Shown: piece after piece, positions 1 to 5,276 of the stretch
How positions within the stretch are numbered: position 1 is the stretch's first letter
Layout of the letters: each line of letters starts with the position of its first letter
Source: an uncultured Solirubrobacterales bacterium
GTDB taxonomy: Bacteria > Actinomycetota > Thermoleophilia > Solirubrobacterales > Solirubrobacteraceae
Direction: 5' to 3'
Assembly (NCBI GenBank): GCA_963764325.1
Contig: CAVXSE010000001.1
Location: forward strand, 644,236-708,235
Length of the DNA stretch: 64,000 nt
The notes under the pieces: model-generated
The model's input: only the letters and a program-made list of their open reading frames with translations
Database searches by the model: none
What the model was told of the DNA's origin: nothing
Program-made: the position numbers and the translations under genes

Positions 1-929
1 AGGCGCTCGCGGACGACGTCCTTCGGCCCGCAGATCGAGACCATGTCGATCAGCTCGTCGGGTATCGCCGCCATCGCCTCATCGCGCTTGCCTTCCAGGT
101 AGAAGTCCTGGATCACTTTTGCGGCGTCGCCGAAGCCGTAGCGCGTGACGAGCTGGTTGTAGAAGTTCTGCTTGCGCGAGCCCATGCCCGCCGACGTAGA
201 GCGCGATGAACGGCCGCATCGCGTCGCGGGCGGCTCACGATGTCGTCGGTCACGTAGACGTTGACGGTCGGGAGCGATGTCGAAGCCGTCGAGGCTCCGC
301 CGGCGCGCGTCGGCGCCCTCCTGGAGCAGCGGTCGAAGCTCCGCGATGTGCTCGGGCGAGAAGAGCGTCGGCAGCCAGCCGTCGGCGATCTCGCCGGCGA
401 GCGCGGTGTTCTTCGGGCCGATCGCGGCGAGGTAGATCGGGATCTGCTCCTGCACCGGGCCGATCGTCATCTTCAGCGCCTTGCCCGGGCCGTCGGGAAG
501 CGGCAGCTCGAGCGTCTCACCCTTGAACTCGAGCCGCTCGCGTGCAAGCGCGATGCGAACTGCGGCGACGTACTCGCGCGTGCGCTGCAGCTGTTTCGCG
601 AAGCGCTGGCCGTGCCAGCCCTCGGCGACCTGCGGACCGGACGAGCCGATGCCGAGCATCATGCGGCCGCCGGAGAGCTGGTCGATCGTCGCCGCGGTCA
701 TCGCCGTCATCGCCGCCGAGCGCGCAGGCATCTGGAAGATCCCCGAGGCGAGGCGGATTTTGGTGGTCTGGCCGGCGAGCCACGCGAGCACCGTCGCGGC
801 GTCCGAGCCGTACGCCTCGGCGGTCCAGACGGAGTCGTAGCCGAGCCGCTCGGCCTCCTGGACGATCGCCAGCTGGTCCTCCGATGTGAGGCCGAGTCCC
901 CAGTAGCCGATGTGTACGCCGAGCTTCAT
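1..929 (-). CDS. LLM-class F420-dependent oxidoreductase (3' end runs off window; probable indels near 190-240)
   Basis: Manual translation from ATG at 929: MKLGVHIGYWGLG...AERLGYDSVWTAEAYGSDA...GPQVAEGWHG...IPIYLAAIGPKN, typical luciferase-like F420 family. Confidence 0.88.
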   Translation of the reverse strand, partial: MKLGVHIGYWGLGLTSEDQLAIVQEAERLGYDSVWTAEAYGSDAATVLAWLAGQTTKIRLASGIFQMPARSAAMTAMTAATIDQLSGGRMMLGIGSSGPQVAEGWHGQRFAKQLQRTREYVAAVRIALARERLEFKGETLELPLPDGPGKALKMTIGPVQEQIPIYLAAIGPKNTALAGEIADGWLPTLFSPEHIAELRPLLQEGADARRRSLDGFDIAPDRQRLRDRRHREPPATRCGRSSRSTSAGMGSRKQNFYNQLVTRYGFGDAAKVIQDFYLEGKRDEAMAAIPDELIDMVSICGPKDVVRER

Positions 930-995
930 CTCAATCTCCTATTCGAGCGCCGTGCGGCGCCAACCCTACAGGGCGCCCGCGCGCGGGCCGCCCGC

Positions 996-1718
996 TCAGA
1001 GGCGGTCCCCGGGACGGACAAACATGATCTCCGGTATGACGCAGGCCGGCGAGAGGCGCAGCAGAAAGCGCACCGACTCCGCGACGTCCTGCGGGCGGAT
1101 CATGTCCTCAGCGGCGACCTGGCCCTTCACGAAGTCGGTCATCGGGGTGTCGACGAACGCCGGGCAGAGAGCCGTGGACTTGATGCCGTCGCCGGCGAGC
1201 TCCTTGTTCATCGCCTCGGTCCAGCCGACGACGGCGTGCTTGGTCGCCGAATACACCGACAGCCACGCCTCGCCGCTCTTGCCCGAGATCGAGGACGTGT
1301 TCACGACCAGCGCGTTGTGATGTTCGGCGCCCGCGGCCTTGAGCATCTCGATCGTTTCGCGGTAGAAGAGGACGATCGAGCGCAGGTTCACGTCAATCTG
1401 CATGTCCATGCGCTTGGTCTCGATCTCGCCGACGGCGGCGCCTACGCCGACGCCGGCGTTGTTGACCAGCACGTCGAGGCGGCCGCAGCGCTCGCGGTGG
1501 GCATCGACGACGCGGCGGATTTCATCCTCGCCCGAGAGGTTCGCGGCGACGCCGACGACGTCGAGATCTTCGCCCGCGAGGTCCGCGACGGCGGCGTCGA
1601 GCTTCTCGGGCCGCCGGGCCGCCATCGTGATCGCATAACCCTCCTGGCCGAGGACGCGCGCGATCTCCAGTCCGATCCCGCTCGAGGCTCCGGTGACGAT
1701 CGCTGCTGGCTTGGCCAT
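996..1718 (-). CDS. SDR family oxidoreductase
   Basis: TGASSGIG, NNAG, YSATK motifs; GAGGAG SD before ATG at 1718. Confidence 0.93.
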   Translation of the reverse strand: MAKPAAIVTGASSGIGLEIARVLGQEGYAITMAARRPEKLDAAVADLAGEDLDVVGVAANLSGEDEIRRVVDAHRERCGRLDVLVNNAGVGVGAAVGEIETKRMDMQIDVNLRSIVLFYRETIEMLKAAGAEHHNALVVNTSSISGKSGEAWLSVYSATKHAVVGWTEAMNKELAGDGIKSTALCPAFVDTPMTDFVKGQVAAEDMIRPQDVAESVRFLLRLSPACVIPEIMFVRPGDRL

Positions 1719-1834
1719 TCTCTCCTCCTGCATGGTTTGTTGGGCTAGCGGCGCGGAGCATTCCACAACGCGAGCCCGCAAGGCGCGAGCCTTGCCTACA
1801 ATCGCTCGCGCAAACCACGACGACGGAGGCCGAG

Positions 1835-2332
1835 ATGAGCCCTGATTCCAGCCCCACGAACCTGCCCGCGCTGGGCGCGCACGAGAGGGAAGAGGTCGGC
1901 TCGCAGCTTCAGGCGACGCTCGTCGAGCTGATCGACCTCTCGCTCTTCGGCAAGCAGCTTCACTGGTCGGTCGTCGGCCGAGACTTCCGTTCGCTGCACC
2001 TGCAGCTCGATGAGCTGATCGACTACTGGCGGGAGGCGAGCGACACCGTCGCCGAGCGCGCCGTGGCGATCGGGCACATCCCGAACGGGCAGGCTGCGGC
2101 CGTGGCGGCCGACAGCCAGATCACGCCGATCGAAGCGACCCCGACCGAGGACGCCGAGGTCGTGCGGGTGCTGACCCATCGGCTGGGGGAAGTCTGTGAG
2201 CGCGTGCGTGAGCGGATGGAGCGGCTCAGCGAGCTCGACGCGGCGTCAGAAGACGTCGTGGTCGAAGTTCTGCGCGAACTCGAGAAGCAGCTCTGGATGG
2301 TCCGCGCGCAGCTCCCGCACGGCTCGGCGTGA
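1835..2332 (+). CDS. dps: Dps DNA starvation/stationary-phase protection protein
   Basis: KQLHWSVVGRDFRSLHLQLDE...DTVAERA ferroxidase signature; EKQLWM C-terminus. Confidence 0.92.
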   Translation: MSPDSSPTNLPALGAHEREEVGSQLQATLVELIDLSLFGKQLHWSVVGRDFRSLHLQLDELIDYWREASDTVAERAVAIGHIPNGQAAAVAADSQITPIEATPTEDAEVVRVLTHRLGEVCERVRERMERLSELDAASEDVVVEVLRELEKQLWMVRAQLPHGSA

Positions 2333-2379
2333 CTTCGGGCAGCACGCGTCGCCGCCACGAGTGGTCACGTCCGGGTTGC

Positions 2380-3240
2380 TCAGCCGGTCACTGACGCGAT
2401 CTTCGACTGGAGCGCGCCGGTGGCGTCGTACGTTTCGTTGCTGGGCGGCGGCGTGACGTGCGGCGTCGGACCGAAATCGAACAGTTCGAGCGTCGTCGTC
2501 GCGGTTGCCGGCTGCCCGGCGTTCAAAGTCAGCGAGACCTGCTCGCGCCTCAGCAGGCCGCTCTTGTCGACCCAGACCTGGACCGGCACCGCGCTTGCGT
2601 TCGTGAGCGTTTTCGAGAGCGCACCGGTCACGGTTTGCGTGAGCGCACCGTGTGCGGAGGCTTCGATTGCAGAGAGCAGGTCGAAGGTTCCGACGTAGTG
2701 GCGCGTGCTCACCCCGCGGATTGTCTGCGTTCCGGCTTGCGAAAAGTGGGCGCCATGAGCTTGCAGGTAGCGCAGGTACTCGTCGGGATCGATGCCCGTC
2801 TCGCCTGCCGACGTCGGGTCGGCGCCGAGGGCGCCGCGCAGCGACGCTACGTCGACCTTGATCCACGTCGCACCGTCCGGTAGCTCGTGTCCCGCAAGCG
2901 GCGAGTGCACGTAGACCGAGCCGCCGGTCTCGCGCTCGGTGATTTCGGGCGCTTCGCCTCCAAGTTCCGCCGTCGCTGACTGCGGGATCCCTTCCAAGCG
3001 CACGTTAATCGCCGATTCTTCGCGGCGGAAGTTGACCGTCCCAGAACCTGTCATCGACAGGGACTCGGCTCCGGAGACGGTCGTCTGAAGCGCGAGGTGC
3101 GCGCCAGGCACCTGCGCCGTACGGCTCGCAACGTCCGCAAGCGAGTAGAGCGAGCTGCTGCCGCCTGTCGTGACGAGGACCGCCGCAGCGACTGCGGCTA
3201 GCACGAGAACTGCTGTGAGTTGACCTCGACGAGCGCGCAT
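2380..3240 (-). CDS. Membrane-anchored/secreted protein, LppX/LprAFG-like fold
   Basis: N-terminal hydrophobic helix; WIKVD, TIRGVSTRHY, VWVDKSGLLRR, LFDFG...V.PPP patterns; no lipobox Cys. Confidence 0.6.
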   Translation of the reverse strand: MRARRGQLTAVLVLAAVAAAVLVTTGGSSSLYSLADVASRTAQVPGAHLALQTTVSGAESLSMTGSGTVNFRREESAINVRLEGIPQSATAELGGEAPEITERETGGSVYVHSPLAGHELPDGATWIKVDVASLRGALGADPTSAGETGIDPDEYLRYLQAHGAHFSQAGTQTIRGVSTRHYVGTFDLLSAIEASAHGALTQTVTGALSKTLTNASAVPVQVWVDKSGLLRREQVSLTLNAGQPATATTTLELFDFGPTPHVTPPPSNETYDATGALQSKIASVTG

Positions 3241-3403
3241 GGTCAGCATTGTCCCAATCGGTGCCTGAGTCGCCGCGACGCCTCGCGGGGGGCGCGTTCG
3301 GACGGATGTCGTAGGCCGGCTTGGTGAGGCGCCGGTTGCTAGCGCCCTGCCGCCGGTACGGCAGCGGGGGGCGCTGTTAGGTTCAGGGCGCGCCACTGCG
3401 CGC

Positions 3404-3476
3404 GGGCCCGTAGCTCAGTTGGTTAGAGCTGCCGATCATAATCGGTAGGTCCCTGGTTCGAGTCCAGGCGGGCCCA
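3404..3476 (+). tRNA. tRNA-Ile2 (CAU anticodon; Met not excluded); one C missing from anticodon loop as read; CCA not encoded
   Basis: Cloverleaf: GGGCCCG/CGGGCCC acceptor, TAGCTCAGTTGGTTAGAGC D arm, GCCGA-TCATAA-TCGGT anticodon arm, GGTTCGAGTCC T arm. Confidence 0.9.
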
Positions 3477-3547
3477 TGACGAAGCGGCTGGAAATCGGGG
3501 CCTTGAGCGCTCGCCACGCGGGCGTAGTGGCCCGCTGCAACCCATGT

Positions 3548-3566
3548 GTGGCAACAAAGTGGCAAT
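3548..3566 (+). repeat. Arm-type-like site GTGGCAACAAAGTGGCAAT (left end)
   Basis: 17/19 identical to 4413-4431; two TGGCAA units 11 bp apart. Confidence 0.7.
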
Positions 3567-3700
3567 GCTGGACGACCGAGCGGGCGTCTGGCCGGTTGAC
3601 CCCCTTATTGTGAAGCAGTGGCTGGCTCGCCGTTCCCGCTGACGAGAGATCACACCGTGCCGCAAGCCACGGAGGACGCGGACGAGGCGTTGCGGGTCGT

Positions 3701-4335
3701 ATGGGCCGCCCTCGATTGGCCCCCCGAGCGTGCGTGGGTCGACATCGAAGCGAGGTCAACGCCGTATTTGACGCTCTGATGAAGGCGGAGTACGTCGAAG
3801 TATGGGGCGACTCGCCCACCGGGCTTCTCTGGGGGGTCAGCGATGCCGGTTTTGACCGCGCGGAAGTCCTCGGGTTGCCGGACTATGTCGTCGAGCCAGT
3901 TGACTTCTGGAAGCAGCACCCGACCCCAACCGACGATGACCTGGCTCAAGTAGCAGCGGGCTGGATCGCCTTTCAGAAGCGTGAGGACGGCGTGGGGCTC
4001 GAAGCGTCGAACATCGTGCCTGGGTCGCCGTGCAGGACGCCGACCGCGTACTGGATCGCGAGACCTTCTGGCGGCTGGTGCTTGCGATCTGCGCGCAGGT
4101 CGATCCGGCCGACGTGGATGCGGGCGGCTTCTTAGAGGTGGACATCGGCGCCGGGCCGCTTGAGGACTTCATCCGAAAGTTCCGCCACGAGGCGATGGAC
4201 CTCATTGAGCCGGAACTGTCACGCAACCGGACGCTGCTCGAATCACTCGGTGGCGTATGGGTAGAGCGAGGAGACAATGAGCTTCTCGCCCGTCTTGATG
4301 CGGCGCTCGCGGCGAACGGCAGTCGGCGCTATTAG
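3701..4335 (+). CDS. Hypothetical cargo protein, C-terminal DUF6869-like domain (frameshift near 4020)
   Basis: ORFs 3701-4135 and 4030-4335 join; FWRLVLAIC...IGAGPLEDFI...LGGVW motif. Confidence 0.6.
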
Positions 4336-4412
4336 GCGCGGCGCGCAGTTGCACCCGGGTGCGAAAAGTTCCGCCGGAGCGAATGCGACAATGCTCCCGC
4401 GGGGCGGTTACG

Positions 4413-4431
4413 GTGGCAACAAGTTGGCAAT
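4413..4431 (+). repeat. Arm-type-like site GTGGCAACAAGTTGGCAAT (right end)
   Basis: Direct repeat of 3548-3566, 91 bp inside attR core. Confidence 0.7.
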
Positions 4432-4522
4432 AGGCGCCACACCACGCCACGCCACACGACGGCGAGGCGTTAGTTGGCTCAGCAAGGCCAACGACGGCAC
4501 TCCACGACACCTACCGCGACAC

Positions 4523-4566
4523 TCATAATCGGTAGGTCCCTGGTTCGAGTCCAGGCGGGCCCATGA
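4523..4566 (+). repeat. attR: duplicated 3' half of tRNA
   Basis: Identical to 3436-3479; preceded by AC, giving an intact CTCATAA loop. Confidence 0.92.
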
Positions 4567-4583: not shown

Positions 4584-4862
4584 CTATGCCGCGTGGCTTT
4601 CGCCCGGCCAAGCGCCGGTGCGGACGCGTTCGTAGAGTGTGTCCGGCGCAAGGTCAGCGCCTCCCGGCCAACAGACCGTGCCCGACTCGGGATCGACAGT
4701 CACCTCGGAGAAGCCGGCGGAGGTTCTCGCGCGCTCGAACACGGGACCGTTCATACGACCGAGCACGTCTACTTCTCCAGTCGTCCCATCGGCGAACGTG
4801 AGCCGCAAGACGCCGTGTCGCGGAACGCTGGCCTGGGTGACATCTGGGGTGATACCGATCAT
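4584..4862 (-). CDS. DUF2442 protein (DhiA-like antitoxin)
   Basis: LRLTFADGTTGEVD...GPVFE...GTVCWPGGADLAPDTLY; ATGA overlap with upstream gene. Confidence 0.88.
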   Translation of the reverse strand: MIGITPDVTQASVPRHGVLRLTFADGTTGEVDVLGRMNGPVFERARTSAGFSEVTVDPESGTVCWPGGADLAPDTLYERVRTGAWPGESHAA

Positions 4863-5119
4863 CGCAGTGGCTCGATCGGGCTCAGTGTCGCACCTTCGCG
4901 GGCCCTCCGCCAGTTGTTTTCGAGCTCGTCCGTGTGTATCCGGGCCCATGCGAGTACGAGTCGGAGCTCGCGTCGCCGCAGGTCGCTTGCGAGGACCTCG
5001 AGCGTGTCGATCTGGATCTTGGCGGTGCGCCCCGCGGCCCGAGCGTGGAAATGCGCGGGCTCGTGGTCATCGAAGTACATCGCGATCGTGAGACCGAAGA
5101 AGCGACTGATCGTCGGCAT
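4859..5119 (-). CDS. DUF4160 protein (DhiT-like toxin)
   Basis: MPTISRFFGLTIAMYFDDHEPAHFH...WARIHTDELENNW. Confidence 0.9.
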   Translation of the reverse strand: MPTISRFFGLTIAMYFDDHEPAHFHARAAGRTAKIQIDTLEVLASDLRRRELRLVLAWARIHTDELENNWRRAREGATLSPIEPLR

Positions 5120-5160
5120 CGGTGCAGATCTTGGCGAGAGCCGCGGCCGCTACGCTCACT

Positions 5161-5276
5161 TCGGAGGCACCCGACCGCGGCGACACTCGACGGTCGGAGG
5201 CAGAGCGGAGTCAACCGAAGAGCGTTCGACCTGTCACGACGGGTTGCGTCGCCCTCGCGTAACCAATCGGGCCCAT
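5161..5276. repeat. ~116-bp non-coding direct repeat, copy 1
   Basis: Ungapped alignment to 6103-6218 (offset 942), about 85/116 identical by hand count. Confidence 0.75.

What the first reader, a model, noticed from the sequence alone, without database searches (positions are those of the whole stretch)
3436..4566. Integrase-free 1.09-kb single-gene cassette with an apparently complete att architecture at tRNA-Ile2
Seen: a 44-bp exact duplication of the tRNA 3' half starting in the anticodon loop. A 19-bp repeat made of two TGGCAA units 11 bp apart lies 68 bp inside attL and again 91 bp inside attR. A CCACR tandem tract lies at about 4437-4456. Only one cargo gene (DUF6869-like) and no integrase remnant. 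Established: tyrosine integrases cross over in the anticodon loop of tRNA genes and bind paired direct-repeat arm sites. Inference: a non-autonomous minimal integrative cassette (1087-bp circle) that keeps every cis site and is mobilised in trans, a MITE-equivalent of integrative elements.
Basis: partly seen in the sequence, partly recalled or inferred. Interest (0 to 1): 0.78.

Follow-up and report, generated by a model that had tools for sequence, protein, structure and literature searches.

The report
Integrase-less mini-island at tRNA-Ile2
A 1.09-kb, one-gene insertion next to a tRNA gene has lost its own integrase but keeps both recombination ends, so it is a small example of a known kind of decayed mobile element that may still be movable by a related integrase.

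Summary
tRNA(CAU) lies at 3404-3476. An exact 44-bp direct repeat (3436-3479 and 4523-4566) brackets 1,087 bp. A paired GTGGCAA repeat sits 68 bp inside attL and 91 bp inside attR, and this pair occurs nowhere else in the 2.55-Mb assembly.

Congeners show these are true arm-type integrase sites. The organism is probably a Solirubrobacteraceae MAG. Integrase-bearing elements at this and other tRNAs have the same layout, and the repeat sequence changes with the integrase lineage.

So the element is best read as a deletion derivative of an integrase-bearing element, which matches the known CIME class.

No cognate integrase, second copy or relative of the cargo was found in about 600 genomes. Mobility of this particular cassette is therefore unproven.

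Integrase-less 1-2.7-kb units are common at this tRNA in the genus. One of them, a Fic cassette, is 94-97% identical in three species whose flanks are 74-81% identical, and it sits at different positions in the array.

The DUF6869 cargo gene is frameshifted, and the tRNA lacks C32. Either could be an assembly indel.

The parts
3404..3476 (+). tRNA(CAU), most likely tRNA-Ile2. It forms attL together with the core. This copy has a 6-nt anticodon loop because C32 is missing.
   Evidence: G000 also has an elongator tRNA-Met and an initiator tRNA, and this one has an Ile-like body with a T-arm identical to tRNA-Ile(GAU). Congeners read GACTCATAA where the window reads GATCATAA.
3436..3479 (+). attL copy of the 44-bp common core, running from the anticodon loop to 3 nt past the tRNA end
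   Evidence: 100% identical to 4523-4566
3548..3566 (+). attL arm-type site pair (GTGGCAAC, 3 nt, GTGGCAAT), units 11 bp apart, starting 71 nt after the tRNA end
   Evidence: Paired repeats sit at the same position in integrase-bearing type A elements (+69/+70) and in G209 (+71).
3782..4335 (+). Single cargo gene, a DUF6869-family protein (start codon uncertain), interrupted by a frameshift at about 3985-4012. The called ORF 4030-4335 is only its C-terminal 101 aa.
   Evidence: Pfam PF21746 at 41.7 bits. Homologues are 125-155 aa long. tblastn of the homologues splits between two frames.
4405..4522 (+). attR arm. It is a relic of the last ~100 nt of a type C-like integrase gene plus its short 3' spacer. 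It contains the arm pair, the CCAC-rich tract (4436-4467) and a core-proximal CGACAC pair (4502-4522).
   Evidence: Alignment with the 3' tails of nine type C-like integrase genes and two mini-elements. Similarity stops within about 30 nt upstream of the arm pair.
4413..4431 (+). attR arm-type site pair (GTGGCAAC, 3 nt, TTGGCAAT)
   Evidence: The second unit ends in T in both arms.
4523..4566 (+). attR copy of the common core, i.e. the displaced 3' part of the tRNA
4584..4949 (-). Context only: the first gene of the downstream flank (DUF2442). It is syntenic with G017, where it lies 326 bp from the tRNA with no 1.09-kb insert.

Best explanation
Window 3436-4566 is the integrated form of a tyrosine-integrase integrative element that inserted into the single tRNA-Ile2(CAU) gene. 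Strand exchange took place within a core of about 44-46 bp that runs from the anticodon loop to the 3' end. The element regenerated the tRNA at attL and left the displaced 3' half at attR. The element belongs to a lineage, here called type C, whose integrases recognise paired GTGGCAAC-like arm sites 11 bp apart on both sides of the core. In that lineage the attR-side pair lies inside the 3' coding tail of the integrase gene. In the window almost all of that gene has been deleted. What remains is about 250 bp of att DNA plus one DUF6869 gene that reads as frameshifted. This makes it a CIME-type element: non-autonomous, and inert in this assembly because no cognate integrase is present. It remains a plausible substrate for excision or tandem accretion if a related integrase and directionality factor arrive in trans. 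Shown: the repeats, their non-random occurrence, the absence of an integrase, the homology of the attR arm to integrase tails, and the insertion relative to G017. Inferred: the deletion origin, binding of the arms by an integrase, and residual mobilisability.
For: The core and arm repeats are exact and unique in the genome. G017 is syntenic on both sides and lacks the insert. Integrase-bearing elements at the same tRNA have paired repeats at +69/+70 in attL, and 2-3 copies about 128-140 nt before the attR core. The repeat sequence tracks the integrase type: A has GGGGCAACC or GGGGCCACC, and B has CTTTCCC. Type C integrases occur in 52/201 genus genomes, and in all 9 of the 11 examined that end next to a tRNA-fragment core the pair lies in the coding tail just before that core. 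The variants are GTGGCAAC, GTGGTAAC, GTGCAAAC and others. Window 4405-4522 aligns to that whole layout. A decay series exists at the same tRNA: the G050 integrase is split over three frames, the G075 e1 integrase has an internal deletion, the G189 unit (1075 bp) keeps a 25-aa integrase relic, and the window keeps none. No integrase like A, B or C and no GTGGCAA-type arms occur elsewhere in G000. The CIME definition is in PMC5704250. Paired arm sites flanking tRNA-derived cores in actinophage attP are described in PMC3203893.
Against: No parent element with this cargo or these exact ends was found in about 600 genomes or in metagenome contigs. A random deletion that removes all of a ~1.2-kb integrase gene yet spares both arm pairs is a coincidence, although my way of finding such units selects for it. 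The attR core is still 44/44 identical, and both arms share the same C-to-T change in the second unit. The cis sites therefore look intact rather than decaying, which fits a cassette that was inserted in its present form equally well. The arm-to-core distance in attR (110 nt) is about 19 nt shorter than in G209 and G189 (129-130 nt). The MAG is 66% complete, so a cognate integrase could lie in the missing part.
Confidence: 0.62

Rival explanations
1. The 1,087-bp unit is a dedicated non-autonomous cassette. It arrived at this tRNA already without an integrase, as a small circle recombined by an integrase supplied in trans. It would belong to a population of single-gene cassettes that are shuffled among tRNA-linked arrays.
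For: Of 30 core-to-core intervals listed at this tRNA in the genus, 11 are under 3 kb. Most of the fetched ones have no integrase and carry one or two genes: HicAB, Fic, DUF433, DUF6325. Similar units with GTGGCAAC arms sit at tRNA-Leu genes, often in tandem, and carry RES-Xre, RelE/ParE-like or TetR plus cupin. A 1.3-kb integrase-less Fic cassette bounded exactly by cores is 94-97% identical in G075, G154 and G164. The chromosomal flanks of G075 and G164 are only 74-81% identical, and the next Fic homologues reach only 73% or less. The cassette is first in the array in G164 and second in G075, and its order relative to another unit is swapped between G154 and G164. In the window the cores are perfect and the arms are intact.
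Against: The attR arm is homologous to an integrase gene's 3' end, so descent from an autonomous element is the simpler origin. The window's cassette is a singleton in about 600 genomes. There is no cognate integrase in G000. The Fic cassette has different arm motifs, and its spread could be by co-transfer within larger composites (cis-mobilisation) or by homologous recombination between cores rather than by trans-acting integrase.
Confidence: 0.27
2. It is a dead fossil. The ends look complete but are no longer recombination-competent, because of altered arm units and a shortened attR spacing. The segment will be lost only by homologous recombination between the 44-bp repeats.
For: The second unit of each pair departs from the genus consensus (GCAAT instead of GCAAC), and the attR second unit begins TT instead of GT. 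The attR arm-to-core spacing is about 19 nt shorter than in G209 and G189. The cargo is frameshifted. No cognate integrase was found.
Against: The same terminal T in both arms argues for a cognate specificity rather than random decay. A difference of 19 nt is about two helical turns, so phasing is kept. The core has no substitutions. The frameshift may be an assembly error.
Confidence: 0.08
3. The duplication is an assembly artefact or a chance repeat, not an integration footprint.
For: The assembly is a MAG with possible indel errors: the tRNA lacks C32 and the cargo is frameshifted.
Against: A 44-nt exact repeat plus a unique paired arm motif on both sides cannot be chance. The same architecture recurs in 58 of the 181 congeneric genomes that carry the core.
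Confidence: 0.02

Closest known systems
CIMEs (cis-mobilizable elements) derived from ICESt1/ICESt3-type ICEs and IMEs of streptococci
   Same: The element is bounded by attL and attR of a site-specific integrase. [quoted passage not shown] Such elements sit at the 3' end of a conserved gene or tRNA, are frequently found in tandem with other elements, and arise by decay of an autonomous element (definition in PMC5704250).
   Different: The window's element is far smaller (1.09 kb with one gene) than the streptococcal CIMEs, which I recall, without checking here, to be several kb or more. The host is a Solirubrobacteraceae-like actinobacterium. Accretion or co-transfer has not been shown for this element.
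attP/attL/attR of heterobivalent tyrosine integrases of actinobacteriophages (L5, Giles, Pixie, cluster K)
   Same: A common core of about 45 bp derived from a tRNA 3' part is flanked by pairs of direct arm-type repeats about one helical turn apart. Pixie has a pair on one side and three on the other, as type A elements do here. Arm sequences differ between related integrases (PMC3203893).
   Different: In this lineage one arm pair lies inside the integrase's own C-terminal coding tail. The elements are not evidently phages. The window's copy has no integrase at all.
Integron gene cassettes
   Same: Both are promoter-poor units of one gene, without their own recombinase, arranged in arrays next to a fixed site and moved by a tyrosine recombinase in trans. 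The Fic cassette's changing position in arrays resembles cassette shuffling.
   Different: There is no attC hairpin and no IntI or attI platform. The boundaries are double-stranded tRNA-derived cores with arm sites. The arrays are short, with 2-3 units.
MITEs
   Same: Both are non-autonomous derivatives that keep only the cis ends of an autonomous element.
   Different: There are no terminal inverted repeats. A duplication of about 44 bp of the tRNA core takes the place of a short TSD. The chemistry is site-specific recombination rather than transposition. The window's element is single-copy rather than amplified.
IMEX elements that exploit XerCD (e.g. CTX-type phages)
   Same: Both are integrated elements without their own recombinase gene.
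   Different: IMEX elements use the host Xer recombinases and dif. Here the site is a tRNA core with arm sites typical of element-encoded integrases. The nearby xerC/D-like gene (G000 C1:635911) is a conserved chromosomal gene.

Membership tests
CIME (decayed integrative element retaining att sites) | Flanked by attL and attR direct repeats of the integration target | tested here: met
   Exact 44-nt repeat of the tRNA 3' part
CIME (decayed integrative element retaining att sites) | No integrase or excisionase gene | tested here: met
   No PF00589 hit in the interval. No Pfam hit other than DUF6869 in any long frame. tblastn with type A, B and C integrases gave E>=0.26.
CIME (decayed integrative element retaining att sites) | No conjugation or mobilisation genes | tested here: met
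   There is room for only one gene, DUF6869.
CIME (decayed integrative element retaining att sites) | Derived from an autonomous element by deletion | tested here: inconclusive
   The attR arm aligns with the 3' tail of type C integrase genes, and a decay series exists at the same tRNA. However, no parent with this cargo was found.
CIME (decayed integrative element retaining att sites) | Can be excised or transferred with the help of a related element | not testable with these tools
   Only class-level comparative evidence is available, from the Fic cassette.
Heterobivalent tyrosine-integrase att site (lambda/L5 type) | Arm-type repeats on both sides of a core shared with the target | tested here: met
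   Paired repeats start 71 nt after the tRNA end at attL and 110 nt before the attR core. They are unique in the genome. Their positions match integrase-bearing relatives.
Heterobivalent tyrosine-integrase att site (lambda/L5 type) | Arm sequence specific to the integrase lineage | tested here: met
   Type A, B and C integrases each have their own repeat, and variants occur within type C.
Heterobivalent tyrosine-integrase att site (lambda/L5 type) | Integrase N-terminal domain binds the arm repeats | not testable with these tools
   The type C integrase has a Phage_int_SAM_5 domain and a catalytic domain, preceded by an unassigned N-terminus of about 65 aa.
MITE | Terminal inverted repeats and a short target-site duplication made by a transposase | tested here: not met
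   No inverted repeat at the ends. The ends are direct repeats of a tRNA core.
Integron gene cassette | attC recombination site (imperfect palindrome) at the cassette 3' end | tested here: not met
   No palindrome near 4336-4566 appears in the inverted-repeat list. The boundary is a tRNA-derived core.
tRNA-Ile2 (lysidine-modified CAU tRNA) | CAU anticodon on a tRNA that is neither the elongator Met nor the initiator | tested here: met
   G000 has three CAU tRNAs. The other two are the elongator and the initiator, and this one has an Ile-like body. Lysidine itself cannot be tested.
DUF6869 (PF21746) | Score above Pfam's gathering cut-off, and an intact ORF | tested here: inconclusive
   The score is 41.7 bits against a cut-off of 30, but the gene is split between two frames. 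This is either a pseudogene or an assembly indel.

The most novel reading that the evidence does not exclude
In this actinobacterial genus, tRNA genes (Ile2, Leu-CAG, Leu-GAG) carry short arrays of 1-2.7-kb units of one or two genes. The cargo includes toxin-antitoxin pairs, Fic and DUFs. Each unit is bounded by a tRNA-derived core plus arm-type sites and has no integrase. In this reading, heterobivalent tyrosine integrases supplied in trans move, reorder and exchange these units between species. That would be an integron-like cassette system built on lambda/L5-type att sites, and the window's DUF6869 unit would be one member.
Probability: 0.22. Interest if true: 0.68.

Novelty: new member of a known kind. 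Interest (0 to 1): 0.4.

Why it matters
By itself the element is a textbook integration footprint that has lost its integrase, which is the CIME state. It is useful mainly for annotation: an island boundary at tRNA-Ile2 and an arm-site motif for a poorly studied actinobacterial integrase lineage.

The wider pattern it led to is more interesting. About a third of congeners that carry this core (58 of 181) have an att-flanked insert at this tRNA. Many inserts are 1-2.7-kb integrase-less units carrying addiction or defence-type genes. At least one such unit has moved between species and changed its position in the array.

If that reflects regular mobilisation in trans, tRNA hotspots in these soil bacteria would work as small cassette exchanges. 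The co-varying integrase and arm-site pairs, with one pair embedded in the integrase's own coding tail, would give a natural series for studying how arm-site specificity evolves.

Tried and rejected
- I could not look at other assemblies of the cargo protein or check the frameshift independently.
- **Metagenome scans.** A 30-mer of the downstream flank, chosen to catch empty and filled alleles, found nothing. A protein-pattern search for the cargo also found nothing.
- **Cargo DNA.** It has no relative in 200 genus genomes or in 400 family genomes.
- **Contexts of DUF6869 homologues.** In named Solirubrobacteraceae MAGs they show no att repeats. One lies 470 bp from a tRNA-Arg, without a duplicated core.
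- **Cargo function.** PADLOC, the protein atlas and a literature search gave no function for DUF6869.
- **Cognate integrase in G000.** The nine PF00589 hits include none closer than 33% identity to types A-C. None has GTGGCAA-like or other paired repeats downstream, apart from one unrelated pair.
- **116-bp repeats at 5161 and 6103.** The idea that they contain degenerate tRNA cores was tested by local alignment against a null. Scores were 36 and 29.5 against a null 95th percentile of 34, which is not significant.
- **IMG/VR hits.** Most hits to the exact arm 18-mer are from unrelated phages of lower G+C (26-50%). Only L053 (56% G+C) shows the arm next to a tRNA-like core.
- **Census of arms with and without an integrase.** The apparent excess of GTGGCAAC arms without an adjacent integrase is not used as evidence of amplification. 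Every integrase-bearing element also has an attL arm far from its integrase, and type C integrases use variant arm words that my exact pattern misses.

Full report
**1. What is in the sequence**

ARAGORN and Rfam place a tRNA with anticodon CAU at 3404-3476 on the + strand. An exact 44-nt direct repeat lies at 3436-3479 and 4523-4566, spaced 1087 bp. It starts in the anticodon loop and ends 3 nt past the tRNA.

A 19-nt repeat made of two GTGGCAA units 11 bp apart lies at 3548-3566 and 4413-4431, with 17/19 identity. The pattern TGGCAA-N5-TGGCAA was never seen in 100 shuffles of the window. In the whole 2.55-Mb assembly it occurs only at these two places.

G000 carries three CAU tRNAs. The other two are the elongator Met and the initiator. 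This one has an Ile-type body whose T-arm is identical to tRNA-Ile(GAU). "tRNA-Ile2" is therefore right by elimination.

ARAGORN could not name the window's copy because it has a 6-nt anticodon loop. All congeners read GACTCATAA where the window reads GATCATAA. This is either an assembly indel or a broken tRNA.

**2. The cargo**

Only one Pfam family is found inside the element: DUF6869, at 41.7 bits, in frame 3985-4335. Homologues are typically 125-155 aa. Their first 30-40 residues match 3881-4012 in a different frame from the rest (4000-4335).

The gene is therefore about 150-185 codons long (about 3782 or 3881 to 4335), with a frameshift near 3985-4012. The 101-aa ORF is a fragment.

The nearest named relatives come from "uncultured Solirubrobacteraceae bacterium" MAGs. 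The host is therefore probably a member of that actinobacterial family, and the assembly may be a long-read MAG. I cannot tell whether the frameshift is real.

No function is known for DUF6869. The element's G+C is 65.1% against 69.1% for the genome, which is the 11th percentile.

**3. It is an insertion**

G017 is syntenic with the window on both sides. Window 1-1729 and 4584-5120 match it at 75-83% identity. G017 has only 326 bp between the tRNA and the DUF2442 gene, whereas the window has the 1087-bp unit plus 17 bp.

**4. The paired repeats are arm-type integrase sites**

Many congeners have a second copy of the core at variable distance from the same tRNA. Where an integrase is present it lies at the attR end, and the same layout recurs:
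- a pair of 8-10-nt direct repeats 11 bp apart, 69-70 nt after the attL core;
- two or three copies about 128-140 nt before the attR core;
- a second short repeat next to the core.

The repeat word follows the integrase. Type A (G022 and G003, 64% identical to each other) uses GGGGCAACC or GGGGCCACC. Type B (G004 and G005, 93% identical) uses CTTTCCC.

The window's word, GTGGCAAC, is found at the 3' end of a third lineage, type C. Type C is 31-34% identical to type A and has Phage_int_SAM_5 plus catalytic domains. Type C-like genes occur in 52 of 201 genus genomes.

In 9 of the 11 examples fetched, plus G190 (L042), the pair sits inside the coding tail. It is followed by a CCAC-rich stretch, the stop codon, a CGACAC-type pair and then a tRNA-fragment core. 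The other two examples (L089, L094) end in unrelated sequence with no arm pair or core. The arm word varies with the gene: GTGGCAAC, GTGGTAAC, GTGGTAAG, GTGCAAAC, GTGTGAAC.

Paired arm sites flanking tRNA-derived common cores are the published architecture of actinophage attP sites such as L5, Giles, Pixie and cluster K (PMC3203893).

**5. The window's attR arm is the relic of an integrase gene's end**

Window 4405-4522 aligns along its length with those integrase tails.

Similarity stops within about 30 nt upstream of the arm pair. tblastn finds no protein-level remnant. So an integrase remnant does exist, but only as the part that doubles as the arm.

The same tRNA shows a graded decay series in other species:
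- an integrase split over three frames (G050);
- an integrase with residues about 185-406 deleted, in a 2057-bp unit (G075 e1);
- a 25-aa integrase relic in a 1075-bp unit with degenerate GTGG(A/C)AAC arms (G189).

This makes deletion from an autonomous type C-like element the simplest origin.

**6. Is it mobilised in trans?**

For this unit there is no evidence either way:
- It is single-copy.
- G000 has no integrase closer than 33% identity to types A-C and no other GTGGCAA-type arm pair. The MAG is only 66% complete.
- Neither the cargo nor the ends have a relative in 200 genus genomes, 400 family genomes or the metagenome contigs.

In favour of retained competence, the attR core has no substitution. 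Both arm pairs also share the same departure from the genus consensus (second unit ending in T), which looks like a specificity rather than decay. Against it, the attR arm-to-core distance is 110 nt, compared with 129-130 nt in G209 and G189.

**7. The class does seem to move**

The core pattern is present in 181 of 201 genus genomes, and 58 of these have two or more copies. These tallies, and those, include the unpublished genomes G057 and G166. No specific claim rests on those two.

Of 30 same-strand intervals that I could read from the listed rows, 11 are under 3 kb: 1075, 1087, 1268, 1320, 1401, 1591, 1784, 2057, 2213, 2242 and 2650 bp. The fetched small units lack an integrase, apart from the truncated one in G075 e1 and the 25-aa relic in G189. 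They carry HicAB-like genes (G007), DUF6325 (G013), DUF433 (G139), Fic (G075 e2 and G154), and an IS110 in a unit with GTGGCAAC arms at +71 and -129 (G209).

Units with GTGGCAAC arms and no integrase also flank tRNA-Leu(CAG) and tRNA-Leu(GAG) cores, often in tandem. Judged from their translated ORFs (these were not scanned against Pfam), they carry RES-Xre, RelE/ParE-like or TetR plus cupin genes.

The strongest case is the 1.3-kb Fic unit:
- It is 94-97% identical over its whole length, bounded exactly by cores, in G075, G154 and G164.
- All other Fic homologues in the genus are 73% identical or less.
- The chromosomal flanks of G075 and G164 are only 74-81% identical.
- It is the tRNA-proximal unit in G164 and the second unit in G075.
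- Its order relative to another unit is swapped between G154 and G164.

That pattern needs horizontal movement of an integrase-less unit as a block. Three routes are possible: an integrase acting in trans, co-transfer in a composite (the CIME route), or homologous recombination between cores. I cannot tell which.

**8. Comparison with what is known**

[quoted passage not shown] Decay followed by accretion of a new element at the retained att site is the published explanation for tandem arrays (PMC5704250).

The window's unit meets the structural criteria of a CIME. It differs in being very small, in its host, and in belonging to a lineage whose arm pair is embedded in the integrase coding tail.

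It is not a MITE, because it has no inverted ends. It is not an integron cassette, because it has no attC. Both are analogies only.

**9. Verdict**

The unit is non-autonomous with apparently complete cis sites. However, it is most likely a deletion derivative of a known kind, and its own mobility is unproven.

The surrounding genus-level pattern of small cassette-like units, one of them demonstrably exchanged between species, is the part worth following up.

Noticed in passing
window 3431-3442: The tRNA-Ile2 copy lacks C32, giving a 6-nt anticodon loop. ARAGORN returns 'tRNA-???'. All congeners have the canonical CTCATAA loop. This is either an assembly indel or an inactivated single-copy tRNA.
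   Followed up: partly
window 3985-4012: The DUF6869 cargo gene changes frame here. The database ORF of 101 aa (P0001) is only its C-terminal part.
   Followed up: yes
window 1730-3399: About 1.67 kb immediately upstream of the tRNA has no counterpart in the syntenic G017 region, which has 92 bp there. It holds a 338-aa minus-strand ORF (2380-3396) with only a weak DUF7537 hit. This may be a second insertion on the other side of the tRNA.
   Followed up: no
This suggests arm sites of yet another integrase type and older decayed units downstream of attR. A test for degenerate tRNA cores in the repeats was not significant.
   Followed up: partly
L074:2722-4000, L096:3681-4998, L095 (reverse strand): An integrase-less 1.3-kb Fic/DOC cassette is 94-97% identical in three species whose backbone is 74-81% identical. 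It sits at different positions in the tRNA-Ile2 array.
   Followed up: yes
L042:4218-4240 and L084-L093: In type C integrases the arm-type site pair lies inside the gene's own C-terminal coding tail (encoding GGNKVAT-like residues). The same bases therefore code for protein and serve as a binding site. Word variants co-occur with integrase variants.
   Followed up: partly
L077 (G209:C1:1067600-1071500): A 2650-bp integrase-less unit has GTGGCAAC arms and an IS110 insertion. It is bounded by two tRNA-Ile2 3' fragments but is not at the tRNA gene, and the left flank is an RCC1-repeat gene. It may be a translocated piece of an array.
   Followed up: no
L053 (IMGVR_UViG_3300005544_000049) about 3905-4040: An unrelated viral contig (56% G+C) carries the identical GTGGCAAC-AAA-GTGGCAAC pair about 60 nt (67-78, depending on where the core is taken to start) before a tRNA-like 3' fragment. 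This arm word may be used by integrases well outside this genus.
   Followed up: no
L015 (G007) reverse strand, about 330 nt inside attR: The HicAB mini-element contains a long composite inverted repeat made of paired GTGTTCG and CGAACAC units plus a 21-nt perfect inverted pair. Its role is unknown.
   Followed up: no
This small pair is often toxin-antitoxin-like and is conserved next to this tRNA in G017.
   Followed up: partly
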